From an uncultured Candidatus Poseidoniales archaeon (lineage in GTDB: Archaea > Thermoplasmatota > Poseidoniia > Poseidoniales > Thalassarchaeaceae), in the NCBI GenBank assembly GCA_964576865.1, contig CAZNVK010000004.1, forward strand, positions 3,006 to 67,005: a DNA stretch of 64,000 bases. Direction: 5' to 3'. The position numbers and the translations under genes are program-made. Positions within the stretch are counted from its first letter, which is position 1, and the number at the start of each line of letters is the position of its first letter. This document shows, in pieces, positions 2,364 through 60,966 of the stretch. The notes under the pieces are model-generated. The model searched no databases and was not told the DNA's origin. It saw only the letters and a list, made by a program, of their open reading frames with translations.

Positions 2364-3434
2364 TCACTCTTCGAGATCTATCCAAGCAGAAGTAGCCGGC
2401 CCTTCGCGAGGATGAGCCGGCAAATCGCTGCCCACACTCTCCAACATCTTGTCCCAATCATGCGAAAGTGAAACCGTGGCACTCTCCATCTTCGCCAACG
2501 GAACCACCCGCTCGGCAGACAAAGTGTGCCAACCATTGTCAGAAATCAACTCCAAGCGAATCTCGACATGAACCTCGGTGCCGGTCATCTCACCCTCCGG
2601 ATCGTGAAACGTCGACTCCATCGCCAAATCGTAATTCTCCTCGGCTTGACGCATCAAAGCACCAACCTGTCGGTGACGAACCAGCAAAGCAACACGGTCC
2701 AATTCAGCGGCAGACAAGCCACCCACCAAATTGTCATGAACCCACCAAACCGTCTCACCCTCACGCTCGGACAACCGCTCAACCAACCCTCGAGGGAATC
2801 CCGTCCGCGCGATTAGCACGATCAGGTCAGCATAGGGCACGGGCAGGTAACGGTCACCCTCGCGCTCGGCAGGATCGACCCCCAGAACGTGGCGCCGTGC
2901 CCCGGTTCGAATCGAATCATAAACCTCGCGCGAAGTAACAAAACCATCGATCTCGCCGCGCGCACGCAACCCCTCCATCCAAACAGCAAGCTCGCGCGAA
3001 TCGCCAGGAATCTCACCCAATTCATGAATCCCAGCGTAGGCTGCAGGGGAAAGAACTCGCAAACCACGACGTGCGCGCCGAAGCTGACGCCGAACAATCC
3101 TATCCTCACACAGGATAATCCCGCCCTTCGGCTGATACCAGACCCTGTCCTCACTGACCAGAACACGAGCCAGCCGACGAGGAACCCTCGCACCGATCAC
3201 CTGGCAGCCCGCGCCAAGCATATCGATCTGACGTCCATGAAGCAACCATCCTGGAACCGCCAACACATCCACATCCCCATCGCTGAGCACAGCAAATCCA
3301 GCCTCCAGAGAGGACACGGCGACCAACTCAAGCTCGATATCGGTCGCCGCCTCAGAAGCTGCAAACTCCTCAAGTCGCCTCGAAATGACGCAGTGCGGGT
3401 GGTCCAGTGTAGCGACGTTCAGTCGGTTTTCCAC
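2364..3434 (-). CDS. HemC (porphobilinogen deaminase)-fold protein lacking catalytic residues
   Basis: Colinear with HemC along the whole length (e.g. [27 protein letters not shown] vs [35 protein letters not shown] vs [17 protein letters not shown] vs SLPAVGQG). Start reassigned to GTG 3434, with SD GAGGTG 6 nt upstream. Confidence 0.65.
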   Translation of the reverse strand: [356 protein letters not shown]

Positions 3435-3523
3435 AGCGTCCACCTCAGGGGGGGAGCACGCAACGTGCCCATCCGCGCGGCCGCACACCCGTTGATATAG
3501 GCAACCCCTCACGACGAAACGCC

Positions 3524-4504
3524 ATGGTCTCACTCAGGAAGGCTCGCCGGGGCTTGAAAAAGCGTCGCGACCTTGTCGAGGAGGCTCTCGAAAATCTCGT
3601 GCAGGAGCGCTTGAGCAAGAGCGACGCGCCTGCTATGAGCCTGGCTCGAGATATTCTGCTGGCGGGAGGCAAGAGGTACAGGCCGATTCTTGCTTTGCTC
3701 GCATACGAGGCCGCCGGCGGCGAGGACGAGGAAGCGGTGATGGATCTAGCACTCGCCGGCGAGTTGATTCACACAGCGACTCTGGTTCACGATGATATCT
3801 ACGATCAATCGAAGACGCGTCGAGGAGTTCCGACGTTACATTCGACGCACGGGATTTCACATGGTATAATTTCGGGCGATTATCTCTTTGTTCTGGGATT
3901 TGGGCTGGCTGGTCGATGCGATGAACAGATCGTCAATCGGATGATGGAGACGTGTGCGAATATCGCATCGGGAGAGTTGCTTCAGTTCAATCATATTGGG
4001 GACCTCGGAACTACTCCTGAGGATTATTACGCGATAATCGATGGAAAGACTGCAGGGCCATTCGCCAGTGCTTGCGCCTGTGCTGCTATGTACGCGAGTG
4101 CACCAGATGATTTGGTCGAGACTCTGAGTGAATTCGGTTGGGAGGTCGGCAGGGCCTTCCAATTGGTCGATGACCTACTCGATCTGACAGGCGACCCCTC
4201 GATGGGTAAGCCGCGTGGAACCGATGTTCACGATGGAAAGATGACCCTGCCGATTATTCACGCTCTGACGATGCTACATGGAGTTGAGCGTGAGCAACTC
4301 GCCGATGTTTTGCAGAATTTCAGCGATGACCGATGGGGCGAGTTGACGGAATTGTTGGAGGGTGCTGGTTCATTCGATTACGCGGGGCAATTGATTGAGA
4401 ATCACATCGACCGCGCGTTCGCAGCGCTGAGCGGATTGCCCGATACCGAGGCGAAGGCGCTGATGTTGGAAATCGCCAAGCGCTCGCGCAGTCGACGGAC
4501 CTGA
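3524..4504 (+). CDS. trans-Polyprenyl diphosphate synthase (IspB/HepT-like, medium/long chain)
   Basis: GGKRYRP, first Asp-rich motif HTATLVHDDIYD followed by RRG, KT motif, second motif FQLVDDLLD, and DxxxGK. Confidence 0.9.
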   Translation: MVSLRKARRGLKKRRDLVEEALENLVQERLSKSDAPAMSLARDILLAGGKRYRPILALLAYEAAGGEDEEAVMDLALAGELIHTATLVHDDIYDQSKTRRGVPTLHSTHGISHGIISGDYLFVLGFGLAGRCDEQIVNRMMETCANIASGELLQFNHIGDLGTTPEDYYAIIDGKTAGPFASACACAAMYASAPDDLVETLSEFGWEVGRAFQLVDDLLDLTGDPSMGKPRGTDVHDGKMTLPIIHALTMLHGVEREQLADVLQNFSDDRWGELTELLEGAGSFDYAGQLIENHIDRAFAALSGLPDTEAKALMLEIAKRSRSRRT

Positions 4505-4538
4505 GGTGTCGGGAGAGGCTGCGCGCCGGGTGATTCTG

Positions 4539-15439: not shown

Positions 15440-17890
15440 GTGTCCGAGGCAGAACCAATCATTCTCGACCACTCGTCTTGGACACAGCAGGATTTGCTGT
15501 TGCACATCATTCAGCGCTACTTCGACCTCGGTAACGAAGCGCTGGCTGGACAAGCTTGGGAGGCGAGAGCCAAGGGCGGGCGAAGCGATTCTGCGGCTCT
15601 CGCCGACCTCAATTCCCAGCTCTATCCACTCGGTTTTCTGGCGATGCTTGACGAGGGCGACCCTCCCATCATCAGCATCGCCCCTCATCCTGAGGATCAG
15701 CCAATTATCCCCAATTGGCAGATGGGTGTAGTCTGGGCGATGATGGCTGGATTCCTGACCCTCATCGGAACCGCTTGGCTGGGTCAGTACAATCCCGATG
15801 CAGTTCCATTCGATGGTGGATTGCTCAAGGATGCAGCTCTTCAGATGGCCTTGCCGATGATGCTGGTTCTAGGTCTGGCAAGCGAAGCGAGGCGGCGAAT
15901 GGCTGCCCGATTCGGTGTTGAAATCGGCCATGTCGTACCGATCGCATTCCCGATCCTCTCTGCGAGTTGGCCATTCGGAATCGCAGGAGTTCTGAGCCAG
16001 CGCAGACCGGATTTGACCCCTATACCGAACCGGCGAGCGCTGGCGATGATTGAATTCAGTGCACCTCTGGTACTCTTCTTCGGCGGCACCGCCTTGACGC
16101 TGATCGGCCTCCATCTGACGCCGGTGGAGCCGCCGAATCTGACGGGTGCGCCAATCGCCTTCCAAAACAATCCACTGATCACAATCCTCTCGCTTGATTG
16201 GCTCGGCGAGTCTCTGTGGATCAAATTGCAGTGGATTCACCTCACAGGACTAGCTGGAATCGGCCTGACACTCATCGGCTGGACCCTCCTGCTGCCGATT
16301 CCCGGCCTCCCCGGCGACCGCCTTCTGCACGCCATTTTCGGTCCAGCCCAGATGTCGGATGCAAGCCGACAGACCTCGATGTTCATCACCATGCTGACCG
16401 CGATGGTGATCATCTTCGCCAAGACCGAATACATGCCTTGGCTCATCATCGCGGCCCTCGGCGCGATGCGTCGATTCAGCCCAGAAAACACGCCCGCGCC
16501 GCTCATCATCAACGAAGCCTTGGTGCCGACTCCAGAGGAGCGTTCGCGCTTCGCAGCAATCCTCGTCTTCGTCTTGATCGCTGGATTCCCTGGGATGTAC
16601 CCCTCGTACAACATTCCCGATTGGGGTGGGGGGCTCGATACCTCGGATTGGGCGGAAGAATTGCAATTGACGCTCTCCGAGACCTACGACTTGAACCTCG
16701 AGCTCGCCCCTGCTGGAGTCCTCCCAGTCTCTGGTTGGTTGCAACTGCGAATCGAAGGTGAAAACTCGGTGGCTTGGCAAATCACCTCTCCCCAGTTCAA
16801 CGAGGATGGATTCCATCGTTTCGATGGCGTCACTCAGAATTCTCCAGCGACGCTGAGCGCGACGATAACACCACTCGACATCGCGCTCGACAACCCCTCT
16901 GCGACCCCAGACACAGCAATGTGGCTACGCATTCTAGTCGAGGTCGAGGGCCACATCGACGAGCATCTCATCACCCTTCTCCACCCGCAGACGACCTCCC
17001 CCATCGACCCGCTCTGGCTGCTCATCGAGGACACCGACACACCGCGGATCTGCATGAGCGTCGATAAGGTCGACAATAGGTCAGCAACTCTGGCACTGAC
17101 CAATCCATTCTGGGAGTTCGAGGGCGAGACCAATCTCACCGAACCCGGACTGCACGATGTCTGCTTGCGCGGATACCCCGGTGCCTTGCAGTCCTCGACT
17201 TCTCACGATGAATATCAGCGAATCATGGGCCCTGAGTTGGCGCTGGAATTCGACGATGGCGAGCGCATAATCTGGTTGATGCCGGTCAATGGGACCGAGG
17301 CTCGATTGCAAGTGTCGGATTCTCAATGGCAGATGCCGTATTGGATGGCCGCGAACTCACCCTACACGATTTCATTCGCGGCCCAGGGAACAGCATTCTG
17401 TCCGTCGAGCCAGATTCATCCAGAGATGGACACGAGCGGCTCGTGGAACTGGACATTCCACGAGCGCTCGACAATACTGATTTCAGCCGGAGATTTAGGT
17501 GAGGGAACCCTTCACTTCGGCGAGGAGGGTTGGTTAGCATTTTGTCAGGAGGGAGTGCTGCTTCGTTCATACCGAATTGGGGAGGGCGAGGACGTCCTTC
17601 TGATGCCCGGAGAACTCGGAAGAGGCCTGCAAACCTCACAGAACATCATCGTCAATCGCGAGAATCACAGCCTTTTCGTGCGGGTTGAATGGAGCGGAGA
17701 TGCGCCGGAATCGGATGTCTGGGATGTCTCGATTCCTGATCAGGTCGAGGCGCATTCCGAGGTGGCAATCGAGATTCAATCGAGTGGTGATTTGTCGCTT
17801 TATCGCGCGGTTTGGGTGACCGTTTCAGATGGTGATATCACCGTTCATCTGGCCGCGCGCTGCCCTGTTGATGGGTGCGAGGTGAGCTGA
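15440..17890 (+). CDS. Site-2 protease (M50)-like membrane protein, zinc ligands lost, with large C-terminal extracellular region
   Basis: Colinear with archaeal M50 proteins (P.RRAL..I..SAPL, IHLTGLAG, LLPIPGLPGDRLLHAIFG), but HExxH reads SEARR and LDG reads LPG. The probable start is GTG 15440. Confidence 0.7.
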   Translation: MSEAEPIILDHSSWTQQDLLLHIIQRYFDLGNEALAGQAWEARAKGGRSDSAALADLNSQLYPLGFLAMLDEGDPPIISIAPHPEDQPIIPNWQMGVVWAMMAGFLTLIGTAWLGQYNPDAVPFDGGLLKDAALQMALPMMLVLGLASEARRRMAARFGVEIGHVVPIAFPILSASWPFGIAGVLSQRRPDLTPIPNRRALAMIEFSAPLVLFFGGTALTLIGLHLTPVEPPNLTGAPIAFQNNPLITILSLDWLGESLWIKLQWIHLTGLAGIGLTLIGWTLLLPIPGLPGDRLLHAIFGPAQMSDASRQTSMFITMLTAMVIIFAKTEYMPWLIIAALGAMRRFSPENTPAPLIINEALVPTPEERSRFAAILVFVLIAGFPGMYPSYNIPDWGGGLDTSDWAEELQLTLSETYDLNLELAPAGVLPVSGWLQLRIEGENSVAWQITSPQFNEDGFHRFDGVTQNSPATLSATITPLDIALDNPSATPDTAMWLRILVEVEGHIDEHLITLLHPQTTSPIDPLWLLIEDTDTPRICMSVDKVDNRSATLALTNPFWEFEGETNLTEPGLHDVCLRGYPGALQSSTSHDEYQRIMGPELALEFDDGERIIWLMPVNGTEARLQVSDSQWQMPYWMAANSPYTISFAAQGTAFCPSSQIHPEMDTSGSWNWTFHERSTILISAGDLGEGTLHFGEEGWLAFCQEGVLLRSYRIGEGEDVLLMPGELGRGLQTSQNIIVNRENHSLFVRVEWSGDAPESDVWDVSIPDQVEAHSEVAIEIQSSGDLSLYRAVWVTVSDGDITVHLAARCPVDGCEVS

Positions 17891-35091: not shown

Positions 35092-35157
35092 GGTAACGCC
35101 TCGCCGTCCGAGGTTCGGTATTTGAGCGGTTGCATGGGAATCGTGGTTCGTTTCGCA

Positions 35158-35223
35158 GGGGTTTGGCTGGGGTTTGGCGAGGGTTTGGCTGGGGTTTGGC
35201 GAGGGTTTGGCTTGGGTTTGGTG
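35158..35223 (+). repeat. 11-bp tandem repeat x6, consensus RGGGTTTGGC(T/G)
   Basis: GGGGTTTGGCT-GGGGTTTGGCG-AGGGTTTGGCT-GGGGTTTGGCG-AGGGTTTGGCT-TGGGTTTGGTG, in the divergent dph2/proC intergenic region. Confidence 0.9.
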
Positions 35224-35272
35224 GGTTCTTGCGCGCGTGGGAGTGAAATAGGACGCGCGGGCCGGGCGCGGC

Positions 35273-39804: not shown

Positions 39805-40045
39805 GTTTCATTCTCCTGCCCTACTCGGGCAAACTGCAATTATCTCATTTTGCTTATGAATTGAATCCCGGCACGCGGGGTTTTGAGGCCTCAAATCGCT
39901 TCTCAGTCACGCAGCCGTGTCGCAAATTCTTGCCGGCACAGAAAATTTCCTTCCACGGTTCGTTGAAAGCCCGCCCCTTTGGGGCGGAGAGAGGATTGCT
40001 TATGCACCCTCGGCGCGCAGGTATGGCCCACGCGTAGCGTAAGCG

Positions 40046-45917: not shown

Positions 45918-46001
45918 ACCCGCTCATCGAGGCCGGCCAATTCAACCCAACGACGCAGCCCCGAGACAATTAGAGCGCAGACCTACCGTGTGGTGAGCCG
46001 G

Positions 46002-46847
46002 TCAAGCCCGAATCACATCGCCGAAGTTAGCCTCGCCATCCCAAGCATCCGCCTTGGCATCGATCACACTCGCGGCAAGAGTCTCGTCGAGCGTGCCTCG
46101 CATCTCAATCAGATTCGCACGCTCGAGCATCTTCGGACTCAAGCCAGGCATCAAAACAGAGATTGCCCGAGGCACCCTGCCTGGGTAGACCTCGTTGACG
46201 TGGCGGACGATATTGGTGGTGCAGGTATTGGTGAGAGTGTTGTACCACTCGGGTGTTTCGACCAAATCATTGGTTCGCCGAAGGTAAGATTCAAGCATCC
46301 GTCGCTCATTTCCTTCACCCAGAACAACCGCCTTGAATAGGTGTGTAATCGAGTTTTTTCGACAGCGCGTTCGGACTCCGATAACGTCGCTCTCCCTCGC
46401 CCAGACGTAGATCAATTCGTACTCGCGGAATAGCCCTCGAACTGGGTGGTAACGCTCCCCCTTTTCCCTTCGTACCTCGATTGAACAGGCCAATCTTCGT
46501 CCGTCGGCAAAGGCCCAGGAGAGAATTGTGTGGGCCATCTGAGGATGTTTTGGGTCGAAATATTCCAAGGTAAGCCAGATGGATTCGACCTCGTTGAGGT
46601 CGTACTCTTCGTTCACCCAACTCTCATCGAAGTCCTTGGTTGAAAGCCAGTTGAAGTCGCGGATATTGGTAATTTTTACTATGTCGCCGTCGAACTCGAC
46701 GGTTGCATTTCGCGAGTTATCGTTGACCCAGGACCTGTCGTTCGAGGGTCGTAATTTGTGTACGCGATGCCACACGGCGACTAGGAATAGGAATCCCAAG
46801 GCTGCGAGCACGGTCAGAGCCGTGGTCAGCACTGCGAGTGCATCCAC
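46002..46847 (-). CDS. DUF4105 (Lnb_N-like) family protein with N-terminal TM anchor
   Basis: NIRDFNW, YDL, AHTILSWAFADG, SIEVR.E.GE.Y, YELIYV.A.E.D, and YNTLTNTCTTNI.RH. Confidence 0.8.
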   Translation of the reverse strand: MDALAVLTTALTVLAALGFLFLVAVWHRVHKLRPSNDRSWVNDNSRNATVEFDGDIVKITNIRDFNWLSTKDFDESWVNEEYDLNEVESIWLTLEYFDPKHPQMAHTILSWAFADGRRLACSIEVRREKGERYHPVRGLFREYELIYVWARESDVIGVRTRCRKNSITHLFKAVVLGEGNERRMLESYLRRTNDLVETPEWYNTLTNTCTTNIVRHVNEVYPGRVPRAISVLMPGLSPKMLERANLIEMRGTLDETLAASVIDAKADAWDGEANFGDVIRA

Positions 46848-46894
46848 GGCCGATGAGAGGTCGGGTCAAGCATGAATGCTGCTGAGGCGAGGGG

Positions 46895-46981
46895 TGGCGC
46901 GGCAGGGGAGATTCGAACTCCCGAGGTGAAACACCACTGGATTAGCAATCCAGCGCAATGGCCAGGCTATGCGACTGCCGC
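46895..46981 (-). tRNA. tRNA-Ser (anticodon GCT), CCA encoded
   Basis: Minus strand GCGGCAG...CTGCCGC-G-CCA acceptor stem, anticodon arm CTGGA-TTGCTAA-TCCAG, long variable arm GGTG-TTT-CACC, and T arm GGGAG-TTCGAAT-CTCCC. Confidence 0.97.
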
Positions 46982-47027
46982 AGTGTTCCGGCGACCCGAG
47001 TTTTCCGCTTAAGCCGAGCGGTTCGAA

Positions 47028-49736
47028 TCACTCTTCCTCGCTGGCCGGGAGGGCGTCTGCATCGTAGTCATCATCGCCCTCAAGGAGGTCAGCTGGAAGG
47101 CGCGCGACGAAGATGATTTCGTCGATGTGTGACTTCTTGTCAGAGTCGCGCAACTCCATGATTCGAGTTCCCTTGGTGACCTTGCCGAGGGTTTCCTTGG
47201 TCTGGGTGGCTGGCATTCGAATCATCATTCCGCTGCCTGTTAGCATGAATAACTGGTCGTCGAGGTCTGGGATTTGACGGACTCCGACGATGGCATCCTC
47301 GTCGGAAAGCGCCATCGTTCTGACTCCCTTCGTGCCTCGATTGGTCTTGCGGTAGCCGTCACGCATGGTTAGAGGCTCGCCGTCATCATCGAGTGACTGC
47401 GAGCCTGATTCGTCGAGGAGTGGGATCATTTCACCCGAGCCGAGTCGGCTTCTTTTTGCCATTCCGTACTTCGAAATGGTCAGCACGCTGGTGTTCGCAT
47501 CGTCGGTCACAATCATGCCGATGACGCAGTCTCCTGCACCGAGTTTCATTCCGCTGACACCTTGGCTTACGCGTCCTTGCACGCGCACCGTGTGAGTCGT
47601 TTGCACATCTCCGGTTGCCGGATCGGTGCGCGTCTTGACCTCTGCTGGGAGGAAGCGGCAGGCGTAGCCGCCGCTCGAGACGAGTACGACGTGGTCGGCG
47701 TCGGTAGCCGGTCGTACTTGCACTAGAGCATCGTTCTCAGTGGCGAATTTCAGGGCGTACTTGCCGTTGCGGTTAATCTTCGCATACTCGGCAAGTCGGC
47801 TTCGCTTGATGCGGCCTCTACTGGTCGCGAAGATCAGGTAATGGCCTTCTGGATTTTCGATGAGGTCACGGTCCATCGGTAGGATCGAGACGACCTTTTC
47901 GTCGTCGCGGATCCCTTGCAGTAGGTTACGGATGTGGGTTCCGCGACCGTACCTGCTAGCGAGTGGGGTCTCCCATGCTCGCAGTCCGTAGACGCGACCT
48001 TGGTCGGTGAAGATGAGTAGCCTGTCCTTTGAGAAGCAGGTTACGATTGCTGCTGGTGCGTCCTCGTCCTTGGTAGCGACTCCCTTCAGCCCCTTGCCAC
48101 CACGGTTCTGTAGGCGGAATGCTTCGACTGGTAGATGGCGGATGTAATTGTCTTGGGTTAGCGAAATCACCAGTGCGCGCTCGGCCACAAGGTCCTCGCG
48201 GTCCATCGAGAGTGGGGTTGGGTCGATGTGTGTTCGGCGCTCGTCACCGTGCTTTTCGACGACCTGTTCTAACTCTTCGAGGAGAATCTCAAGTCGGCGC
48301 TTACGGCTTTCGAGAATTGCCATGTATTCCTTGATGGCTTCCTTGAGCTTGTTGAGTTCATCCTCGACTTCCTTGACGTTCAACTTCGTCAATTGGTAAA
48401 GTCGGCGCTCGGCGATTGCCTTTGCCTGTCGCTCAGAGAAGTCGAAGCGCTTGATCTTCGGGAATTTTTCATCGCCGCGCAGGTATCCTTCGAATTGGTC
48501 GCGCGAGTCAGAATTTCTGCCGACTTCGATGATCTCAGCCATGCGCTTTTGCGCGCGCATCAGACCTTCGAGAATGTGCGCGCGAGCCTCGGCCTTATCG
48601 AGTTCGAACTGGGTTCTGCGCTCGATAACGGTCTCGCGGTGGCGCATGTAGGTGTGTAGAATCGTCGAGAGGTCGAGTTGTACCGGCTTGCCGTTGAGGA
48701 TTCCCATCATGTTAGCCGAGTAGGATTCCTGCAACCTACTCGATTGGTACAATTGATTGAGAATCGCGTGAGGATCTGCATTATTCTTGACCTCGATGAC
48801 GACCCGGATTCCTTCCTTGCTCGACTCGTCTCGAATATCACGGATTCCTTTGATGGTCTCCTTCGAGACGAGGTCGGCGATTCCCTGCAGCATTCCCGCC
48901 TTGCGGACTTGGTAGGGAATCGATGTGATGATTATGCGCTTGCCCGATGAATCGTCGCGGACTTCCGCGTCTGAACGAATGTGGAATCGGCCGTGACCGG
49001 TGCGATACATGTCGAGAATCCCATCGATTCCGTAAATCGTCGCACCGGTGGGGAAATCAGGTCCTTTCAGAAATTCCATGTACTCCAGCGCGTCAATCTT
49101 CGGAGCCTTGTCAAGCGATCTCTTGCGGTCCTCTTCAATCACTTTCTCGGTGTGAAAGCGGACCGCTGCGGCGACCTCGTTGAGGTTGTGTGGAGGAATC
49201 TTGGTCGCCATTCCGACGGCTATACCATCGCTTCCGTTCAGCAAGAGATTCGGGAGGCGCGAAGGCAGTACCGTCGGCTCATGTTCGCTATCATCGAAAT
49301 TAGCAACCATGTCGATGGTATTCTTGTTGATGTCATCGAGCATGTGTGAGGAGAGTCGATCCAGCCGGCTCTCAGTATAACGCATAGCAGCCGGCGGATC
49401 GCCATCGATGGAGCCGAAATTGCCCTGTCCATCGATGAGAGGATAGCGTAGAGAGAAGTCCTGAGCCATCCTAACCATGGTGTCGTAGAGGGCTTGGTCA
49501 CCGTGAGGGTGGTACTTTCCCATCACTTCACCGACGGAGCGAGCAGATTTGCTGTAGCTCTTTTCGTGCGTGTGGCCGGCCTGATGCATACCCCATAGAA
49601 TCCTGCGGTGCACCGGTTTCAAACCGTCGCGAACATCGGGTAGGGCGCGGCCGATGATGACGCTCATCGCGTAGTTGATGTAACTCTCTTTCATCTCCTC
49701 TGAGACGAATCTTCGCTGTAGATCTTCACTCATCAT
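47028..49736 (-). CDS. gyrA: DNA gyrase subunit A
   Basis: [30 protein letters not shown] (catalytic Tyr), [14 protein letters not shown], and GyrA-box QNRGGKG. Confidence 0.98.
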
Positions 49737-56600: not shown

Positions 56601-57723
56601 TGAAGCCGGTAACGCATCCAGCAGTCATGGCGATATTCGAGAATCCGAATGCTCCTTGGGCGCTGTCGAGGGCAACAGCGGCGGTGAAATTGGCGAAGAT
56701 GTCAGACATCGTCTCACCGATCGCAGTCGAGCCAGGCTCGGGGTTTCGAGCGAGATTCTCGACACCGATACCGCCGGTTGCTGTGTCGGCGACGAGGCGA
56801 GAGATTGCTGCACCGCCGCCGAGTTTGTCGGCTAGATACATCAGGAACATGAAACCTCCACCATAATCGGCGATTCGCTGATTCCACCAGCGCACGCTCA
56901 TATTGGCATTCTGCGACCATTCATTCGCGTGCTGCGAAAGCGAATCGGTGACTCCGAAGCAGAGGTAGGCAGCCATGTCCGCCGCGCCCTCGTCAATCCA
57001 GAGGTACTCGTAAGGGTCGCGGGCATTGTGGAGCAGGTGCTCAAACTCGTGAGCGAGAATTGTGTTGCGCCAGCTCATGTCGCCGGAGTCGACGAAGAGA
57101 ATCTCTCGCTGGCTGGCAACGTTGGGGTCGAAGTATCCCCCGATGCCACCAGCACCATCGATTGCGAAGAGTAGAATCTCGATCTGACAATTATTGTCGA
57201 TGTCTGGAGGATCGCCGAAGTAGGTGGTGTCAGTCGGGTAGATCGTCGACTCCCAAGTCGATGCGATATCGTTCAGGGTCGTCGCAGAAATCACCACTCC
57301 GTCCTCGACGAAGATCGCCGAATTGGTCGAGATCTTCTCAACGGTCGCCGAGACCAATCCGCTCGAAGTCGTGAATGTGTCAGTGTCGTCGACCTCCCAC
57401 GCATTCTCACACGACTTCGCCACAGAACGCGAGTTCTGATAGGATGCTGAGAACGGCAGCACGAGATTCGGATAGCCGTCCTCGACCCACTGCTTCTTCA
57501 GGTATCCAAAGGCAGAGTAAACCGGCCGCTCAGCATCGTTGTAAAGGTAGGCATGACCATCAGCGGCCGGATCGAAATCACTCAAGTCCCCCGGCTCAAC
57601 AGTGTTCCCCTCACCGCCAGAAGCACCGCTCGCCCCTACCATCGGCACCATCACCGAGGCGAGCATAAACCAAACCAACAACAACGAAGTTGTTGAACGA
57701 CTTGAACCGCTAGAAGTCCTCAC
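53617..57723 (-). CDS. Large secreted zinc metallopeptidase with multiple PKD domains and C-terminal membrane anchor
   Basis: Signal peptide, ILAHEFEHLLH + WIDEGAAD (HExxH...E), repeated PKD motifs (WDLGD, WNWGDG, WDFGD; H.Y..PG.Y.V.LTV), DxDxDG Ca-binding loops, and a C-terminal TM helix. Confidence 0.9.
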   Translation of the reverse strand: MRTSSGSSRSTTSLLLVWFMLASVMVPMVGASGASGGEGNTVEPGDLSDFDPAADGHAYLYNDAERPVYSAFGYLKKQWVEDGYPNLVLPFSASYQNSRSVAKSCENAWEVDDTDTFTTSSGLVSATVEKISTNSAIFVEDGVVISATTLNDIASTWESTIYPTDTTYFGDPPDIDNNCQIEILLFAIDGAGGIGGYFDPNVASQREILFVDSGDMSWRNTILAHEFEHLLHNARDPYEYLWIDEGAADMAAYLCFGVTDSLSQHANEWSQNANMSVRWWNQRIADYGGGFMFLMYLADKLGGGAAISRLVADTATGGIGVENLARNPEPGSTAIGETMSDIFANFTAAVALDSAQGAFGFSNIAMTAGCVTGFICRAQMSGYRDEWQTSWTSPTHELEGWGMRAYKFAGGTGAPLNLMVQPTQFGVAGTVLAKDASTGTWSMTRLRIDSATGAGTGLVHGFGNTTDEVWVIAWYESQVTDCDYNFASCGITTGSYPTTDIVVQAEIITDPAEVDIMEIIPFDRDGDNLDDSVEIQLEVTSNAFFEIIEVTFEAFVNNTLTDSITFAVTAGNSIPTEESIWFTPPETGDWTFGVDIRDITGQVVDTAFTLPFGLGNMEPVATGSTSTAITQTWLPVSMFGGGFDVWGFGQLNSSYSHNETPISYHWDLGDNTTSGLKNPVHIYTQAGNYTISLTVRDVGGFYSETQSWTLVVADTTEPIPEIRVDGVAITDEVVLLTNQRVLFSARSTVDNVPHEQMEFTWNWGDGSDEGGQGMVEASHAYVDGSADGIIYTLTLTIHDGTFVVEEQIYVRVLNRVPRQIFAEELQTFTLTPLEMPNVFTDDDGIIVEFLWTFDEGVNLSGRGMTLTSDFSTSSSVAQNPSVGWKTPGLKSITLEVTDDDGNMSSVTLTVRVLNQRPVAVFDRPTDGTVETEYFFESMSFDPDGDTSLLQTRWNITGMDNEIENVSGIHHTFTEPGLYTVSLTVVDERGAESATKSYQIRIANPLPVPMVEFFQPSLNGTPLPSIPDDGMAANWWVPFATDGGAFLAPNYPLKLDGSASYDADPRFVGRHSTDQNDPEWNGITRWIWDFGDATPQVEGPMVWHSWERPGTYVVTLTVVDGFEGGDTNTTSMLVHISRAPEINPIDPIDSDYVTQGDLVLLNHSAFDADLEEGLEAWLDFDAFDDSDGDGITNNDRDISLTDQLSVDWDLNALIDSDQDGDPRNDFLWGNMTWYQTGEIRIVLQVCDGVGVCTTEDYIVTVLSAEEDRRQRSWDELTWRDFIPNKESAGLLALVAMVLILGWLVMRQKDEEEIDAEEMLETYDVQEVEAEGGLPGMDQHTPPPQPKYLTVDERRNKESGYVRPIRTRRR

Positions 57724-57782
57724 TCACACGCACCCCAGCAATAAGACAGGTTCAAGCCCCACTCCAACCCGCTATAACATCG

Positions 57783-58871
57783 ATGGAGCATCGTTCGGAC
57801 GCATCCGGCCCGAAGGGCCGACTCCCAAGTGCCTCCAAGCCAGCGCGGCGAATCCCAATGATACTCGTCGCGACCATCGTCCTCACCGCGCTCACACTGC
57901 TCTTAAGCAACGCAGGGGGGGAGTCCCCAGAACAGGGTGAAAGTGGTTGGCAGGTGAAAGTGATCGAGCCAGAGTTGGTGAGCATCGTCCCACACGACCC
58001 GACGGCGTTCACCCAAGGCCTCGAAATCCATGACGGCAAGTTCTACGAAAGCACCGGACTCTACGGCGAATCGAGCGTGCGAATCGTCAACATGAGCACC
58101 GGCGAAATCGAGGTACAGCACGACCTTTCCGACGAGTATTTCGGCGAGGGTCTCACCATCTGGAACGACTCGGTCATCCAACTCACTTGGCGCGAAAATA
58201 CCGGCTTCATTTACGACCTTGAGACCCTCGAACCCATCGGGAATTTCACCTACTCGGGAGAGGGCTGGGGACTATGCGCGCGCGATGACGAAATCTGGAT
58301 GTCCGACGGTAGTTCATCCATCATGCGGATGTCCGAGGATTTTTCCACCGTCGAGGAGGAGATGGAGATTCGAGTTCACGGACTCTCCCTCGACCGCTGG
58401 AACGAGTTGGAGTGTCGAGGTTTCATTTTCGCGAATAGATGGTATGATGACTCGATGTATGCAATAGTTCCCTACCACAAAAATGGAATTGGGCCTGTGT
58501 GTGAAAAGGTAGATTTCTCCGCGATTAGAGATGAGTTCGAAAGCGAGGATTCGGGCGTTCTCAACGGAATCGCCTACGATAATGAATCGAGGACATGGTG
58601 GGTGACCGGGAAGAATTGGTCAAATTATTACGAAGTTAAGATTGGATTCAGGGGGGGTATTTTTGACTACAATTGTGAAGCAATCTCTAATCCAGTGATT
58701 CCTCGCCTACCCGGTCTTTACGGGTGGCTGGATCAGTATATCCCGATGTGGTTTGTTTCGACGGTTCTGGTCTATTCTGCAATCTTACTCGTTCTCATCT
58801 CACCATTCGCGTTCTACAGGCGTTGGAAGCGTCAAACTGAGAAGCCGCCTCGTCTCAGCGAGGAAAAGTAG
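57783..58871 (+). CDS. Glutaminyl-peptide cyclotransferase (beta-propeller, plant/bacterial type I)
   Basis: PHDPTAFTQGL, YESTGLYG.SS, YFGEGLT, QLTW, GEGWGL, MSDGS, NELE, VLNGIAYD, and VTGKNW. TM helices at both ends. Confidence 0.92.
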   Translation: MEHRSDASGPKGRLPSASKPARRIPMILVATIVLTALTLLLSNAGGESPEQGESGWQVKVIEPELVSIVPHDPTAFTQGLEIHDGKFYESTGLYGESSVRIVNMSTGEIEVQHDLSDEYFGEGLTIWNDSVIQLTWRENTGFIYDLETLEPIGNFTYSGEGWGLCARDDEIWMSDGSSSIMRMSEDFSTVEEEMEIRVHGLSLDRWNELECRGFIFANRWYDDSMYAIVPYHKNGIGPVCEKVDFSAIRDEFESEDSGVLNGIAYDNESRTWWVTGKNWSNYYEVKIGFRGGIFDYNCEAISNPVIPRLPGLYGWLDQYIPMWFVSTVLVYSAILLVLISPFAFYRRWKRQTEKPPRLSEEK

Positions 58872-58886
58872 GAGGCGGCGAGCAAC

Positions 58887-59624
58887 ATGTCAGGCGACGA
58901 TGATTCACGCAGAAGCCGCCTCGAATGGTGGCTCGAGGACCTCTCAGTCGACCCAGCGACGCGAGTCGCGGGAGCCATCCTGATAATTCTGGGAAGCGTC
59001 CTCGGCGTCGTCACTGGAAGCCTGCACATCACCGCCGACGTTGGCGATGTTTTGACCGGCCAGCTCGACGATTCCGGCGGGCTGGCCGATGTCCACGGAG
59101 CTGTCTATTCAGCCCTCGTCGACAATTCCACCGGCGGCGACGCCATGGAAGGCGTCGTCGTCATTCTCTACGACGAGGAATTCCTCGAGATCGGCCGCGA
59201 CACCACCGATTCCGGCGGCCGATTCTCGATAGACGACGTAACCCGCCACTCATCCACCCTCGTCGTCGACCACCCCGACCACATAACCCAACGAATCCTG
59301 CTCATCCCGGGAGACCATGCCCAGATCACGGTGACGTTGACGGAGGGTGAGGGTGAGGAGGAGATCGACATGAGGGGTGAGAGCCATCTCGCTGAATCGG
59401 TGCTTATCACTTCGATAATCGGTGCACTGACCCTCATCGCTGGCATCGCTGGATTGGTTGGTGGAATCGAGGCTTACAATGGCAAGAGCCACTTCCGCAC
59501 GCAGTTTTTGGCGTATCTTGGGTTGTGGAGTCAGGGGCTGATGTTCATCGGTCCACTGTTCATTCTGATGGGGATGGGGCTGGCGTATCTGACGCGCGGG
59601 CAGTTTGGCTTCGTGGAGGCTTGA
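58887..59624 (+). CDS. Membrane protein with carboxypeptidase-regulatory-like (prealbumin-fold) extracellular domain
   Basis: TM helix, then V.G.V....TG.DAMEGVVV......DTTDSGGRFSI..V beta-sandwich pattern, then 2 C-terminal TM helices. Confidence 0.65.
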   Translation: MSGDDDSRRSRLEWWLEDLSVDPATRVAGAILIILGSVLGVVTGSLHITADVGDVLTGQLDDSGGLADVHGAVYSALVDNSTGGDAMEGVVVILYDEEFLEIGRDTTDSGGRFSIDDVTRHSSTLVVDHPDHITQRILLIPGDHAQITVTLTEGEGEEEIDMRGESHLAESVLITSIIGALTLIAGIAGLVGGIEAYNGKSHFRTQFLAYLGLWSQGLMFIGPLFILMGMGLAYLTRGQFGFVEA

Positions 59625-59625
59625 C

Positions 59626-60966
59626 GTGTACCTCATCACCATCGAAGGGGGGGACGGCTCCGGCAAGGGCTTGGCCACAAAGGTCGTCGCCGAAGTGCTG
59701 GAACGCGAGTTTTGTTTTACGTCGGTTGAGGTTACTGGCGAGCCGCGACGCGATCATCCGCTTGGGCGGCTCGCTATCGACTCGGTGCGGCAACAGACGC
59801 ACACTCCGGAAGCGGAGGCCGGGTTGTTTGCCGCTGACCGAGTCGACCATTCTCACGGCTGGATTTTGCCTCGGCTTGAGGAGGGGCGAATCTGCGTGAG
59901 TGAACGCAATGTGCATTCATCTCTTGTGTATCAGGGGATTGTTGGTGGATTGGGGGTCGAGCGCGTTGCTCAGATCAATTCTGCCGCGCTCGTTCCTGAT
60001 CTTTGCATCTGGGTGGATTGCGATCCGGATGTGGCGATGAAGCGGATTCAATCTGGGACTCTGCGAATGATGTCTGACAAGGCTGAGTATTTCGAGACGA
60101 CCGAGTTGCAGAAGCGGATTCGGGCGGGGTATGCCTCGCTTCTGTCGGGGGAAGTCGAGATGCCGACGCCCTTCGATATGGGTGCTATCATCGGGCCGGT
60201 TTCGAATGAGTCGACTGAGAGGGAGTTTCGACGCAAGTTGACGCTGCATATTCGCAAGTTCATACATTCGCGGCCCGAGCCGTTGAATGTCGATACGGAG
60301 GCTGTTGAGCGATTTATGTTGCAGCGTCTGATCAAGTCGACGAAAGGTCAGACGGTGCTCGATGGGTTGGGTGTTGAGCCAGCTCGTACGCGCGCTGATT
60401 GGTTGGATGGCAAGGCTCCTTGGCGGGTTTTGCGTGAGGCGCAGGCTGAGCATTCTTCGGCGCTCGAGGCTGTGGGTGAGGACGAGCGCGTCGACGTGCC
60501 GAAATCTGTGCTGGCTCATTCGATTTCATCGATTTGCGGAACGCTGGCACTTCTTCCTTCTGCTGATGTGAATGAGTTGCGGGCGGCTCAAGGGCCAGTC
60601 CGCGCGGTGTCCGATTCGCATTCTCACAAGGTTCTACGATTCATGGCCGACCGCTCAGGTTGGGTCAATCAACACAAATCACTGCTCGGTCGAGATGCCG
60701 CGCGCAATCAATTGCGCGACGAATCTCACCCATTCGGCACACTGGTGTTGATCTTGTGGCCGCTTCGCCGTGCTATCTCACGCTGGTTAGCCGCGAATCC
60801 TGACACTCACCCTCGATTCGCCATGGGTCAAATTGTTCGTTCTGGTGAGCATCCACGCGCGGTGCGGGATGCGATTGAGCGGCTGGCGATTCTCGGAAAT
60901 GGAAAGTCCGAGGCGGCCGCTCCGGCGGGCTCGAGCGGACTCGTCGCGTGGTGGCAAGGTCAGTAG
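59626..60966 (+). CDS. tmk: Thymidylate kinase fused to a ~230-aa C-terminal domain
   Basis: ITIEGGDGSGK, LFAADR..H, ER...SSLVYQG, PDL.IW.D, and KRIRAGY. GTG 59626 is preceded by a GGAGG SD. Confidence 0.8.
   Translation: MYLITIEGGDGSGKGLATKVVAEVLEREFCFTSVEVTGEPRRDHPLGRLAIDSVRQQTHTPEAEAGLFAADRVDHSHGWILPRLEEGRICVSERNVHSSLVYQGIVGGLGVERVAQINSAALVPDLCIWVDCDPDVAMKRIQSGTLRMMSDKAEYFETTELQKRIRAGYASLLSGEVEMPTPFDMGAIIGPVSNESTEREFRRKLTLHIRKFIHSRPEPLNVDTEAVERFMLQRLIKSTKGQTVLDGLGVEPARTRADWLDGKAPWRVLREAQAEHSSALEAVGEDERVDVPKSVLAHSISSICGTLALLPSADVNELRAAQGPVRAVSDSHSHKVLRFMADRSGWVNQHKSLLGRDAARNQLRDESHPFGTLVLILWPLRRAISRWLAANPDTHPRFAMGQIVRSGEHPRAVRDAIERLAILGNGKSEAAAPAGSSGLVAWWQGQ

What the first reader, a model, noticed from the sequence alone, without database searches (positions are those of the whole stretch)
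2400..60700. Repeated sharp A+C to G+T strand-composition flips every few kb, including inside single genes
Seen: on the + strand, A+C-rich tracts switch abruptly to G+T-rich tracts at about 3450, 17480, 20600, 24300, 28340, 35150, 40000, 46200 and 59330, regardless of gene direction. Within one + gene (58887-59624), 59221-59280 is 40/60 A+C and 59521-59580 is 42/60 G+T. In the AAA gene, 28261-28320 is 38/60 A+C and 28381-28440 is 38/60 G+T. In smc, 21121-21180 is 37/60 G+T (GAG/GCT/GCG codons) but 23041-23100 is 42/60 A+C (GAA/GCC/GCA). The effect appears carried by synonymous positions. Known: keto (G+T) skew flips mark points where leading and lagging strands swap. Inference: there may be many local bidirectional initiation points for DNA synthesis, repair or resection (e.g. 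recombination-dependent replication) rather than one origin, or a strand-specific mutator acting outward from fixed sites.
Basis: partly seen in the sequence, partly recalled or inferred. Interest (0 to 1): 0.66.

Follow-up and report, generated by a model that had tools for sequence, protein, structure and literature searches.

The report
Strand-skew mosaic in a marine archaeon
In this GC-rich Marine Group II archaeon and its GC-rich relatives, stretches of about 0.5-2 kb have one DNA strand stripped of A (and partly C) and enriched in G and T; the favoured strand switches from stretch to stretch whatever the gene direction. It looks like an undescribed, heritable, strand-specific substitution pressure, not a set of mini replication origins.

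Summary

- **Where the signal sits.** It is strongest at four-fold degenerate sites and holds genome-wide. The variance of strand skew in 100-site blocks is 5.8 times the random expectation. It is 1.1-1.6 times in AT-rich species of the same genus and 1.5 times in E. coli.
- **Other site classes.** Two-fold sites, codon positions 1 and 2, and intergenic DNA follow the same local polarity.
- **Gene direction.** Polarity ignores it: the sense strand is keto-rich in 53% of strong-patch sites and amino-rich in 47%.
- **Patch size.** The median is about 0.5 kb and 90% are under 1.3 kb. The genome has 879 patches.
- **Conservation.** The regional polarity map is nearly identical in five other GC-rich genomes of three lineages of the genus, even when measured on non-overlapping codon columns. 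It is absent or faint in AT-rich congeners.
- **Composition.** Against the AT-rich relatives, patches have lost A on one strand (A to G) while T and C on that strand are unchanged.
- **Excluded.** No sequence motif, promoter-like AT peak, tRNA gene, amino-acid composition, tRNA decoding class, RNA-folding benefit or repair-gene gain or loss explains it.
- **Edges.** Upward and downward switches are almost mirror images, so local bidirectional origins are poorly supported.

Best reading: a DNA-level, regionally stable, strand-asymmetric transition pressure of unknown enzymology.

The parts
593..3504 (.). A+C-rich (amino) tract on the + strand. It spans the + gene 276-1238 and the two - genes 1255-2271 and 2364-3533. 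+ strand four-fold composition for 1339-3504 is A .36, C .33, G .21, T .10, so T is depleted.
   Evidence: Segmentation. All three gene calls are validated because divergence from two relatives is concentrated at codon position 3 (32/22/219, 56/31/202 and 60/39/214).
3450..3550 (.). Upward switch 1. It lies at the divergent gene pair 2364-3533(-) / 3524-4504(+).
   Evidence: Four-fold skew goes from -0.36 to +0.09.
17704..18804 (.). G+T-rich (keto) patch over the 3' end of 15431-17890(+) and panE 17875-18843(+). Four-fold composition is A .07, C .29, G .36, T .28.
   Evidence: Pfam match for PanE.
19290..20286 (.). Amino patch inside the flavoprotein gene 18861-20507(-). + strand composition is A .37, C .29, G .26, T .07.
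20894..21824 (.). Keto patch in the 5' third of smc (20748-24737, +). Four-fold composition is A .05, C .29, G .35, T .31.
22361..23834 (.). Amino patch in the middle of smc. Four-fold composition is A .22, C .52, G .17, T .10.
24431..25093 (.). Keto patch across the smc 3' end and the next + gene.
   Evidence: Four-fold skew goes from -0.33 to +0.30 while positions 1+2 stay flat.
28434..29163 (.). Keto patch inside the STAND/AAA gene 28081-30210(+).
33849..35656 (.). Keto patch across the dph2(-)/proC(+) divergent region. It contains the strongest raw skew in the window: +0.32 at 35101-35700.
39655..41860. Keto patch of 2.2 kb. It spans the small - ORF 39496-39804 (no ortholog found in either relative), the intergenic region and the first two thirds of mutS (+). 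Four-fold composition is A .09, C .24, G .36, T .31.
42912..44085 (.). Two amino patches inside mutL (42754-44739, +).
44643..44928 (.). Keto patch across the convergent junction of mutL(+) and the EPSP synthase gene (-).
45483..46125 (.). Amino patches in 44730-45917(-) and 46002-46847(-). It is a change between two genes on the same strand.
46443..48447 (.). Keto patches over 46002-46847(-), tRNA-Ser (46895-46981, -) and 47028-49736(-).
57256..58319 (.). Amino patches across the divergent pair 53617-57723(-) / 57783-58871(+).
58976..59264 (.). Amino patch inside gene 58887-59624(+). Four-fold composition is A .11, C .72, G .10, T .07.
59288..59294 (.). The sharpest switch in the window. It lies inside one gene, and four-fold skew jumps by 1.22 units.
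59390..60633 (.). Keto patch over the 3' end of 58887-59624(+) and the thymidylate kinase gene 59605-60966(+). Four-fold composition is A .08, C .20, G .43, T .30.

Best explanation
The window shows a genome-wide mosaic of domains, mostly 0.2-2 kb long (median 0.5 kb). In each domain a DNA-level, strand-asymmetric substitution pressure has turned amino bases into keto bases on one strand: mainly A to G, plus C to T relative to neutral regions. Which strand is affected is a stable regional property, and it is unrelated to gene direction.

The pressure belongs to the GC-rich lineages of the Marine Group II genus MGIIb-O1. It accompanies their rise in GC: in strong domains the A:T to G:C change has happened on one strand only.

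**Shown**
- All site classes are affected.
- Polarity is independent of orientation.
- The regional map is conserved across lineages whose individual synonymous sites have largely turned over.
- Amino-acid replacements follow the local polarity.
- The shift is uniform over sequence contexts.
- Per-site rates on recent branches remain asymmetric.

**Inferred**
The keto-rich strand is the one that is preferentially single-stranded or resynthesised in tract-sized repair or recombination events. Two routes fit:
- hydrolytic deamination of A and C on an exposed strand, in a genus that lacks endonuclease V and mostly lacks UDG;
- G:T-type misincorporation into a resynthesised strand.

The local strand preference is either inherited or set by a conserved local feature not yet identified. 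The domains are not replication origins.
For: **Synonymous sites**
- Four-fold sites are over-dispersed 5.8-fold in 100-site blocks. The autocorrelation is +0.06 and decays to zero by 750-1000 nt.
- Patch class called on even sites predicts composition at odd sites, with keto skew from +0.41 to -0.39.

**DNA-level effect, not sense-strand effect**
- Sites in neighbouring genes on opposite strands correlate negatively in sense coordinates. That is a positive correlation on the + strand. Convergent pairs give -0.03 to -0.045.
- Intergenic skew follows the flanking polarity (r=0.39, p=2e-19).
- Codon positions 1 and 2 follow with slopes 0.12 and 0.08.
- The change in position-1+2 keto content between this genome and an AT-rich ortholog tracks polarity (r=0.27, p=4e-27). 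The ortholog's own amino-acid composition predicts polarity only at r=0.14.
- Two-fold sites follow. NNR codons end in G at .76.60 and .45 in sense-keto, neutral and sense-amino patches. NNY codons end in T at .55.41 and .22.
- The sense strand is keto-rich in 53% and amino-rich in 47% of strong-patch sites.
- A validated tract at 593-3504 spans + and - genes.

**Lineage specificity**
Variance ratios are 6.6, 6.0 and 5.8 (BH13, CAYF, this genome), 2.1-3.3 (G014, G018, LRMED, UBA58), 1.1-1.6 (AT-rich congeners), 1.3 (another family) and 1.5 (E. coli).

**Conserved map**
Measured on disjoint codon columns, the disattenuated correlation is 0.99, 1.0, 0.91, 0.85 and 0.77 with the GC-rich relatives. 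With the AT-rich ones it is 0.05-0.34.

**Composition**
In smc, the AT-rich relatives have about A .35, C .20, G .13, T .31 in the keto-patch columns and A .26, C .28, G .11, T .35 in the amino-patch columns. This genome's keto patch has A .03, C .22, G .39, T .36. Its amino patch has A .25, C .56, G .10, T .09.

**Context**
The A/G shift has an odds ratio of 0.27-0.42 in all 15 trinucleotide contexts tabulated.

**Recent branches**
The per-site A>G rate is .121 in keto patches and .043 in amino patches.

**Repair genes**
EndoV is absent in 27 of 27 genomes of the genus, and UDG is present in 6 of 27.
Against: - **No molecular agent identified.** EndoV, UDG, RNase HI, Y-family polymerase and MutS do not differ between patchy and non-patchy genomes.
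- **Deamination alone is an awkward fit.** Spontaneous deamination should favour C>T and lower GC, whereas GC rose.
- **Recent rates are too weak.** The asymmetries on recent branches are smaller than needed to hold the present amplitudes. They imply equilibrium skews of about +0.06 and -0.21, against observed +0.30 and -0.44. Parsimony with a diverged outgroup biases this test towards apparent relaxation.
- **Gene calls are my own.** The opposite-strand and intergenic evidence rests on my own gene caller. At whole-gene level the convergent-pair correlation is only r=-0.15, p=0.07.
- **Some link to genes exists.** Crossing a gene boundary roughly halves the correlation, and upward switches are enriched near 5' ends.
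- **The conserved map is unexplained.** Sharing of the polarity map by the deepest branch of the genus (UBA58) needs one of two things: very long maintenance, or an unidentified local determinant.
Confidence: 0.55

Rival explanations
1. Many local bidirectional initiation points for DNA synthesis exist, for example recombination-dependent replication or repair. Each creates an origin-like upward flip of keto skew that decays outward.
For: The axis of the skew (G+T against A+C) is the one linked to replication. Sharp upward jumps outnumber sharp downward ones in the extreme tail: 46 against 23 at z>=4.5, and 36 against 12 beyond 3 SD. Increment skewness is +0.18 +/- 0.03.
Against: - At moderate thresholds up and down switches are equally frequent (144 against 135), and their averaged profiles are near mirror images.
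- No motif or AT-rich element marks the up-switches.
- The excess of sharp up-steps is concentrated within 150 nt of gene 5' ends (28% against a 12% background).
- About 440 'origins' in 1.65 Mb would be needed.
- There is no long-range coherence: correlation is zero beyond 1 kb and contig-level skew is at most 0.07.
Confidence: 0.08
2. Transcription-linked single-strand exposure sets the polarity. The non-template strand, including the one exposed by R-loops formed by sense or antisense transcripts, gains G and T. G-richness stabilises further R-loops, so the polarity reinforces itself.
For: - The chemistry fits, because amino bases on a displaced strand deaminate to keto readings.
- There is a mean 5'-to-3' decline of sense-strand keto skew, from +0.07 to -0.05.
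- Up-switches are enriched 2.4-fold near gene starts.
- Divergent intergenic regions show an average upward step.
- A self-reinforcing polarity would explain why the map outlives site turnover.
Against: - Domain polarity is unrelated to gene direction (53:47). Antisense transcription would therefore have to dominate in about half the domains.
- Domains cross convergent gene junctions with the same DNA-strand polarity.
- No promoter-like AT peak sits at internal switches.
- RNase HI is present in all genomes tested.
Confidence: 0.15
3. Selection on synonymous codon choice explains the pattern. Slow and fast translation domains, or codon optimality tied to expression or protein folding, are conserved among orthologs and visible only where selection on codon usage is strong.
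For: - The polarity map is conserved in sense coordinates among orthologs.
- Genes with more typical codon usage are more A/C-ending (rho=-0.36).
- A ramp-like G/T excess sits at 5' ends.
- Correlation drops at gene boundaries.
Against: - Positions 1 and 2, amino-acid replacements and intergenic DNA all follow the same polarity.
- The axis pairs G with T and A with C. C-ending NNY goes with A-ending NNR, which is not a codon-optimality axis.
- Every 4-fold or 2-fold box for which a tRNA was recovered among the 30 tRNA loci scanned has a C34 or U34 tRNA; Thr, Val and Gly have the full G34/U34/C34 set and Lys and Glu have both U34 and C34. G-ending codons are therefore read by Watson-Crick pairing, and keto/amino is not a decoding class.
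- Neighbours on opposite strands correlate in DNA-strand terms, not in sense terms.
- Native mRNA windows fold slightly more stably than synonymous shuffles, and this is unrelated to skew. Selection against self-pairing is therefore not the cause.
Confidence: 0.1
4. GC-biased gene conversion with a strand bias explains the pattern. In recombination heteroduplexes of about 1 kb, only G:T mismatches are converted, to G:C. Other mismatches are restored to the resident strand. A to G is then fixed only on the strand that has the sense of the invading strand.
For: - The phenomenon accompanies a GC rise from about 45% to 56% and consists of one-strand A:T to G:C change.
- Tract length (median 0.5 kb, 90% under 1.3 kb) is in the range of prokaryotic recombination tracts. 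That range comes from general knowledge.
- Both tract edges are sharp and carry no motif.
- MutS and MutL are present.
Against: - It needs the same strand to invade repeatedly at a given locus over long times, and no hotspot signal was found.
- AT-rich congeners have the same MutS/L.
- Relative to neutral regions, C to T is also shifted, which plain GC-biased conversion does not predict.
- No polymorphism data were available.
Confidence: 0.1
5. The pattern is an artefact. Candidates are chimeric assembly of strains, wrong-strand gene calls or damaged-DNA sequencing errors.
For: The genome is a 50-contig MAG that is 85% complete. The gene calls are my own.
Against: - The raw-sequence skew needs no gene calls.
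- The same map is seen in six assemblies from different projects, including a 1.6-Mb single-contig MAG and Tara contigs.
- ORFs are intact and 85-97% identical to those of relatives.
- Key gene calls are validated by divergence concentrated at codon position 3.
Confidence: 0.02

Closest known systems
Replication-associated strand compositional asymmetry of bacterial chromosomes (leading strand rich in G and T; reviewed in PMC3269016 and PMC10030826)
   Same: The compositional axis is the same (G+T against A+C, with GC skew and TA skew changing together). It is visible at synonymous sites, at non-coding sites and, more weakly, in amino-acid usage. It is independent of gene direction.
   Different: - The scale is 0.2-5 kb instead of a replichore of hundreds of kb to Mb.
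- There are about 880 domains per 1.65 Mb.
- No long-range coherence and no origin or terminus markers were found.
- Both domain edges are sharp.
- The amplitude at four-fold sites (up to +/-0.8) exceeds typical replication skews.
N-shaped skew domains of mammalian genomes (upward skew jumps at replication initiation zones with linear decline between them; from my own knowledge, Touchon/Huvet/Arneodo and colleagues)
   Same: A weak excess of sharp upward over sharp downward jumps gives a slight sawtooth.
   Different: The asymmetry is small (skewness 0.18). The averaged up and down profiles are near mirror images. The domains are about 1000 times shorter.
Heavy/light-strand asymmetry of vertebrate mitochondrial DNA (deamination of A and C on the strand left single-stranded; from my own knowledge, Reyes 1998; Faith and Pollock 2003)
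   Same: Both amino bases (A and C) are replaced by keto bases (G and T) on one strand, at all weakly constrained sites, with a knock-on effect on amino-acid composition.
   Different: There is no single origin-anchored gradient. The polarity alternates every kb. The net effect raises GC instead of lowering it.
Transcription-associated skew and R-loop-linked GC skew at promoters (PMC3787257, PMC5786239, PMC3315797)
   Same: The scale is in kilobases. There is an excess of G and T on a strand presumed to be exposed, and a small average 5'-to-3' gradient in genes.
   Different: Polarity here is unrelated to the annotated direction of transcription (53:47), and domains run through convergent gene junctions.
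Strand-coordinated clustered mutation (kataegis) from deaminases acting on single-stranded DNA at breaks or in break-induced replication (mentioned in PMC10030826)
   Same: The changes are strand-coordinated and the tracts are kilobase-sized.
   Different: There is no sequence-context preference (odds ratios are uniform over 15 contexts). A to G is as prominent as C to T. The polarity is stable over evolutionary time rather than arising from one-off events.

Membership tests
Replication-associated strand skew (origin/terminus switching) | Polarity is coherent over a whole replichore and switches only at origins and termini | tested here: not met
   Autocorrelation falls to zero by 750-1000 nt. 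Contig-level keto skew is at most 0.07. The genome has 879 domains.
Replication-associated strand skew (origin/terminus switching) | G+T excess on one strand at synonymous and non-coding sites, irrespective of gene direction | tested here: met
Replication-associated strand skew (origin/terminus switching) | Recognisable origin elements or a shared motif at upward switches | tested here: not met
   Scans of 4-, 6- and 8-mers gave a maximum mean step of 0.08 for well-sampled words. There is no AT-rich peak. Orc1/Cdc6 genes and ORB boxes were not specifically searched.
N-domain type sawtooth skew | Sharp upward jumps with gradual decline, and no sharp downward jumps | tested here: inconclusive
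   Increment skewness is +0.18 +/- 0.03, and extreme jumps run about 2:1 up:down. However, sharp downward jumps number 135 against 144 upward ones, and the profiles are mirror-like.
Transcription-associated strand asymmetry | Polarity follows the transcribed (sense) strand | tested here: not met
   Sense polarity is 53:47. Orientation is the same in both polarity classes. Only a small mean 5'-to-3' gradient exists. Real transcript directions could not be tested.
Single-strand deamination footprint (mtDNA type) | Loss of both A and C, and gain of G and T, on the same strand | tested here: met
   The keto-rich strand has A .104, C .203, G .432, T .261. Neutral regions have .202.295.298.206.
Single-strand deamination footprint (mtDNA type) | Gradient proportional to time spent single-stranded from a defined origin | tested here: not met
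   No anchoring sites were found, and the domains are block-like with two sharp edges.
Enzymatic deaminase clusters (kataegis-like) | Preference of the mutated base for a di- or trinucleotide context | tested here: not met
   The A/G odds ratio is 0.27-0.42 in all 15 contexts tabulated. The C/T odds ratio is 0.32-0.83.
Translational codon-usage selection | Confined to synonymous coding sites and organised by tRNA decoding classes | tested here: not met
   Positions 1/2 and intergenic DNA follow the polarity. Among the 30 tRNA loci scanned, the four-fold boxes Thr, Val and Gly have G34, U34 and C34 tRNAs, and the two-fold boxes Lys and Glu have both U34 and C34.
GC-biased gene conversion | AT-to-GC variants segregate at higher frequency than GC-to-AT variants in recombining regions | not testable with these tools
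Only the association with a GC rise is shown.

The most novel reading that the evidence does not exclude
GC-rich Marine Group II archaea carry self-maintaining 'strand-polarity domains'. In each region of about 0.5-2 kb, one DNA strand is persistently the target of amino-to-keto transitions. The polarity is inherited regionally through complete turnover of individual sites. It is independent of both replication direction and gene transcription, and it is the route by which the lineage's GC content rose. That would be a third, undescribed source of strand asymmetry beside replication and transcription. Unchecked notes from this scan suggest it may be widespread in archaea.
Probability: 0.3. Interest if true: 0.85.

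Novelty: new variant of a known kind. Interest (0 to 1): 0.72.

Why it matters
**What is new.** Textbook strand asymmetry comes from replication (chromosome-scale) or transcription (gene-oriented). This case is a strong asymmetry on a kilobase scale. It is blind to gene orientation and specific to some lineages of one genus of very abundant ocean archaea. Its regional map is conserved beyond synonymous saturation.

**Consequences if it is mutational.**
- It exposes a DNA transaction in uncultured archaea that leaves one strand vulnerable, or resynthesised, in fixed tracts.
- It shows that a 10-point GC shift can proceed one strand at a time.
- It violates the stationarity and strand-symmetry assumptions of codon and phylogenetic models.
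- It biases codon-usage-based predictions of expression or horizontal transfer.
- It visibly steers amino-acid replacement.

**A practical tool.** The block-variance statistic used here could be run over all genomes. Phylogenetic profiling could then look for the responsible gene.

Tried and rejected
1. **Motif anchoring of switches.**
   - K-mer enrichment around 105 up and 96 down switches, plus a genome-wide step scan for all 4-, 6- and 8-mers, found nothing with a mean step above 0.08 at adequate counts.
   - GGCC, proposed in earlier scan notes for other archaea, gives -0.013. G/C-runs give +0.02 to +0.05. (CG)n runs go weakly with downward steps.
2. **Promoter-like AT peak at switches.** None was found.
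3. **tRNA genes at flips.** The window has one tRNA, and it is not at a switch.
4. **Amino-acid composition as the cause.** The AT-rich ortholog's composition predicts polarity only at r=0.14.
5. **Codon family and next-base context as the cause.** Both were controlled for, and the signal remains.
6. **Selection against mRNA self-pairing.** Native windows are 1.6-1.8 kcal/mol more stable than shuffles, and this is unrelated to skew.
7. **Wobble against Watson-Crick decoding classes.** Rejected on the tRNA set.
8. **Repair-gene differences.** None of the following discriminates between patchy and non-patchy genomes:
   - EndoV, absent in all;
   - UDG, present in 6 of 27;
   - RNase HI, present in all;
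   - Y-family polymerase, absent in the genus;
   - MutS1, present in all.
9. **Descent from a patchy GC-rich ancestor, tested through an A-T imprint in AT-rich relatives.** There is no imprint (r about 0). My back-of-envelope expectation is also about 0, so this test does not decide the question. A weak G-C imprint exists (r=0.07-0.23).
10. **Whole-gene neighbour correlations.** They are near zero, so this is not a regional island effect.
11. **Metagenome or metatranscriptome reads.** SNP spectra and transcript directions were therefore not examined.
12. **Literature.** Four full-text searches and one review found no description of the pattern.

Full report
**Source and setting.**
- The window is C4:3006-67005 of a 1.65-Mb, 50-contig MAG with 56% GC.
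- Record titles of close relatives place it in Marine Group II: Poseidoniales, Thalassarchaeaceae, MGIIb genus O1.
- Pfam confirms ordinary archaeal housekeeping genes in the window: polyprenyl synthase, geranylgeranyl reductase, PanE, a flavoprotein, dph2, proC, mutS, mutL, EPSP synthase and thymidylate kinase.
- I called genes with my own dicodon model: 1155 genes covering 84% of the genome.
- Contested calls were checked by whether divergence from two relatives is concentrated at codon position 3. It is for 276-1238(+), 1255-2271(-) and 2364-3533(-).

- Keto skew in 600-nt windows runs from -0.30 to +0.32, against a random SD of 0.04.
All nine switch points are upward jumps of +0.19 to +0.30.
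- At the three intragenic switches (24300, 28340, 59330), the jump is carried by third and four-fold positions, while positions 1+2 do not move.
- Four of the nine switches lie at divergent gene pairs, where orientation adds to the jump.

**It is a genome-wide property of synonymous sites.**
- Per-gene four-fold keto content is over-dispersed (z SD 2.8), even after controlling for codon family.
- Permuting synonymous codons within genes shows spatial clustering in 37% of genes at p<=0.05 and in 23% at p<=0.005. Examples are smc (z=10.5), 58887-59624 (z=9.9) and mutS (z=6.3).
- Residuals were conditioned on codon family and on the following base. They autocorrelate at +0.06 within 100 nt, reach zero by 750-1000 nt, and turn slightly negative beyond that.
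- Classifying blocks on even-numbered sites predicts the composition of odd-numbered sites, with keto skew from +0.41 to -0.39.
- Segmentation gives 40 patches in the window (median 470 nt, maximum 2.2 kb). Genome-wide it gives 879 patches: 429 keto and 450 amino, median 517 nt, 90% under 1.3 kb, covering 36% of the sequence.

**It is a DNA-strand effect rather than a sense-strand effect.**
- Sites in adjacent genes on opposite strands correlate negatively in sense coordinates, which is a positive correlation on the + strand. Convergent pairs give -0.03 to -0.045 out to 500 nt, and divergent pairs -0.01 to -0.02. Co-directional neighbours give +0.02 to +0.03.
- Intergenic keto skew follows the flanking four-fold polarity (r=0.39, p=2e-19).
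- Codon positions 1 and 2 follow with slopes of 0.12 and 0.08.
- The difference in position-1+2 keto content between this genome and its AT-rich ortholog tracks polarity (r=0.27, p=4e-27). The ortholog's own amino-acid composition predicts polarity only at r=0.14, and its position-1/2 keto content not at all. The pressure therefore drives amino-acid change, and not the reverse.
- Two-fold sites behave the same way. NNR codons end in G at .76.60 and .45 in sense-keto, neutral and sense-amino patches. NNY codons end in T at .55.41 and .22.
- In strong patches the sense strand is the keto-rich one for 53% of sites and the amino-rich one for 47%.
- The tract at 593-3504 is A+C-rich on the + strand and runs across one + gene and two validated - genes.
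- Caveat: the opposite-strand statistics rest on my gene calls. At whole-gene level the convergent correlation is only r=-0.15, p=0.07.

**It is lineage-specific.** I ran the same pipeline on other genomes. The table gives the variance ratio for 100-site blocks.

| Genome or group | Variance ratio | GC |
|---|---|---|
| BH13 | 6.6 | 54.5-56% (with CAYF and this genome) |
| CAYF | 6.0 | |
| This genome | 5.8 | |
| G014 | 3.3 | 50-53% (with LRMED-022 and G018) |
| LRMED-022 | 2.8 | |
| G018 | 2.1 | |
| UBA58 | 3.3 | 57% |
| Four AT-rich congeners | 1.1-1.6 | 44-47% |
| Another Poseidoniales family | 1.3 | |
| E. coli | 1.5 | |

- Short-range autocorrelation is more than ten times stronger in this genome than in the controls.
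- GC alone is not sufficient. E. coli has GC4 of 0.63 and G020 has GC4 of 0.49, and neither shows the mosaic.

**What changed.**
- In smc, the AT-rich relatives have four-fold composition near A .35, C .20, G .13, T .31 in the keto-patch columns and A .26, C .28, G .11, T .35 in the amino-patch columns.
- In this genome the keto patch has A .03, C .22, G .39, T .36.
- The amino patch has A .25, C .56, G .10, T .09.
- Genome-wide, the keto-rich strand of strong patches has A .10, C .20, G .43, T .26. Neutral blocks have about .20.30.30.21.
- The rise in GC has therefore been achieved, in strong patches, by A to G on one strand only (T to C on the other). GC4 is about the same in patches and neutral regions.
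- The A/G shift has an odds ratio of 0.27-0.42 in all 15 trinucleotide contexts tabulated. The C/T shift has 0.32-0.83. There is no deaminase-like target motif.

**The polarity map is conserved far beyond individual sites.**
- In 50-codon windows of orthologs, this genome's profile correlates with CAYF (r=0.79), BH13 (0.74), G014 and LRMED (0.52-0.55), UBA58 (0.47), AT-rich congeners (0.06-0.13) and another family (-0.01).
- I then used disjoint codon columns for the two genomes, so that identity by descent at single sites cannot contribute. The disattenuated correlations are 0.99, 1.0, 0.91, 0.85 and 0.77 for CAYF, BH13, LRMED, G014 and UBA58. They are 0.34, 0.26, 0.05 and 0.15 for the non-patchy genomes.
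- UBA58 belongs to the same GTDB genus. By SMC identity it is the deepest branch (67-70% to all the others), and the GC-rich clade of this genome is nested among AT-rich lineages.
- Two histories fit. Either the map is ancestral, was actively maintained, and was lost in AT-rich lineages, or it arose twice with the same polarity from an unidentified local determinant.
- AT-rich relatives show no A-T imprint and a weak G-C imprint (r=0.07-0.23). This does not decide between the two histories.

**Is the pressure still acting?**
- I used CAYF as sister and BH13 as outgroup, with 7542 aligned four-fold sites in the window. Patch class was defined from the outgroup only.
- The per-site A>G rate on the two recent branches is .121 in keto patches and .043 in amino patches.
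- In amino patches, keto-to-amino changes run at .124 per site and the reverse at .081. In keto patches the difference is small (.134 against .119).
- The asymmetry persists in the right direction but is weaker than needed to hold present amplitudes. Parsimony with a diverged outgroup biases this test towards apparent relaxation.

**Switch points.**
- Up and down switches are about equally common: 144 against 135 at z>=3.5. Up-switches are in excess only in the extreme tail: 46 against 23 at z>=4.5. Increment skewness is +0.18 +/- 0.03.
- Their averaged profiles are near mirror images and decay over about 1 kb.
- Up-switches are 2.4-fold enriched within 150 nt of gene 5' ends. This matches a small mean 5'-to-3' decline of sense keto skew, from +0.07 to -0.05.
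- No 4-, 6- or 8-mer marks the switches. GGCC gives -0.013, G/C-runs give +0.02 to +0.05, and (CG)n runs go weakly with downward steps.
- There is no AT-rich peak. The one tRNA gene in the window is not at a switch.

**Other explanations tested.**
- Selection against mRNA self-pairing. Native 150-nt windows fold 1.6-1.8 kcal/mol more stably than gene-wide or local synonymous shuffles. The same holds in an AT-rich control, and there is no relation to skew.
- Decoding classes. Among the 30 tRNA loci scanned, Thr, Val and Gly have G34, U34 and C34 tRNAs, and Lys and Glu have both U34 and C34. G-ending codons are therefore not wobble-read.
- Repair genes. Endonuclease V is absent from all 27 genomes of the genus. 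UDG is present in 6 of 27. Y-family polymerase is absent from all O1 genomes tested. RNase HI and MutS1 are present in all. None separates patchy from non-patchy genomes.
- Assembly artefact. This is excluded because the map is shared by independent assemblies, including a single-contig MAG.

**Interpretation.**
- The best-supported reading is a DNA-level, regionally stable, strand-asymmetric transition pressure, amino to keto on one strand, that operates in the GC-rich MGIIb-O1 lineages.
- I infer that the keto-rich strand is the one preferentially exposed or resynthesised in tract-sized repair or recombination events. Two chemistries fit: deamination of A and C on exposed single strands, and G:T-type misincorporation into a resynthesised strand.
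- A strand-biased form of GC-biased conversion fits the GC rise and the tract size, but it needs a persistent local strand choice.
- Codon selection is contradicted by the non-synonymous and non-coding sites.

**Novelty.**
- Four full-text searches and a recent review of strand asymmetries gave no description of an orientation-independent, kilobase-scale mosaic in prokaryotes.
- Unchecked notes from this scan report similar mosaics in several other archaea, some said to be anchored on GGCC. That anchoring is absent here.
- I class this finding as a new variant of a known kind, namely strand compositional asymmetry. There is a real chance that it reflects an undescribed process.

Noticed in passing
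whole genus (27 genomes), not window-specific: Endonuclease V (PF04493) is absent from all 27 genomes of the genus. A family UDG (PF03167) is found in only 6 of 27. No Y-family polymerase (PF00817) is found in any of the 11 MGIIb-O1 genomes tested. This is a thin repertoire for handling deaminated bases.
   Followed up: partly
genus level; loci L136-L158: One GTDB genus spans about 41% to 59% GC: UBA23 about 41%, the core O1 44-47%, the LRMED group 50-53%, this clade 54-56% and UBA58 57-59%. Four-fold GC ranges from 0.28 to 0.61.
   Followed up: partly
window 33982-35775 (-) and 35273-36091 (+): The long - ORF containing dph2 is 597 aa and overlaps proC by about 500 nt, and its best Pfam stretch covers residues 382-591 (the extent of a second matched stretch was not listed). 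The real dph2 start is probably much further downstream, which would leave a divergent promoter region near 35.0-35.27 kb.
   Followed up: no
window 59605-60966 (+): The thymidylate kinase ORF is 453 aa, but the Tmk domain covers only residues 13-180. The C-terminal 270 residues or so have no Pfam match.
   Followed up: no
window 57783-58871 (+), 52743-53615 (-) and 28081-30210 (+): These three genes are much more diverged from the two closest relatives than their neighbours are. Their identities to the two relatives are 66/62%, 79/68% and 82/73% aa, against a typical 93-97%. They are a glutaminyl cyclase-like protein, an unnamed protein and a STAND/AAA NTPase.
   Followed up: no
genome-wide, downward switches: (CG)n runs such as CGCGCG are enriched near downward (G+T to A+C) switches: 26 of 96 against 9.1 expected. 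They have a small negative mean step of -0.07. The cause is unknown and may be purely compositional.
   Followed up: partly
window 20748-24737 compared with the rest of the window: Synonymous divergence from the sister lineage CAYF is uneven. Four-fold identity is 0.79 in smc but 0.65 on average over the window. This hints at recombination among close lineages.
   Followed up: no
genome-wide coding windows of 150 nt: Native coding sequence folds about 1.6 kcal/mol more stably than synonymous-codon shuffles in this genome. In an AT-rich congener the difference is 0.8 kcal/mol. This suggests mild selection for, not against, local mRNA structure.
   Followed up: no
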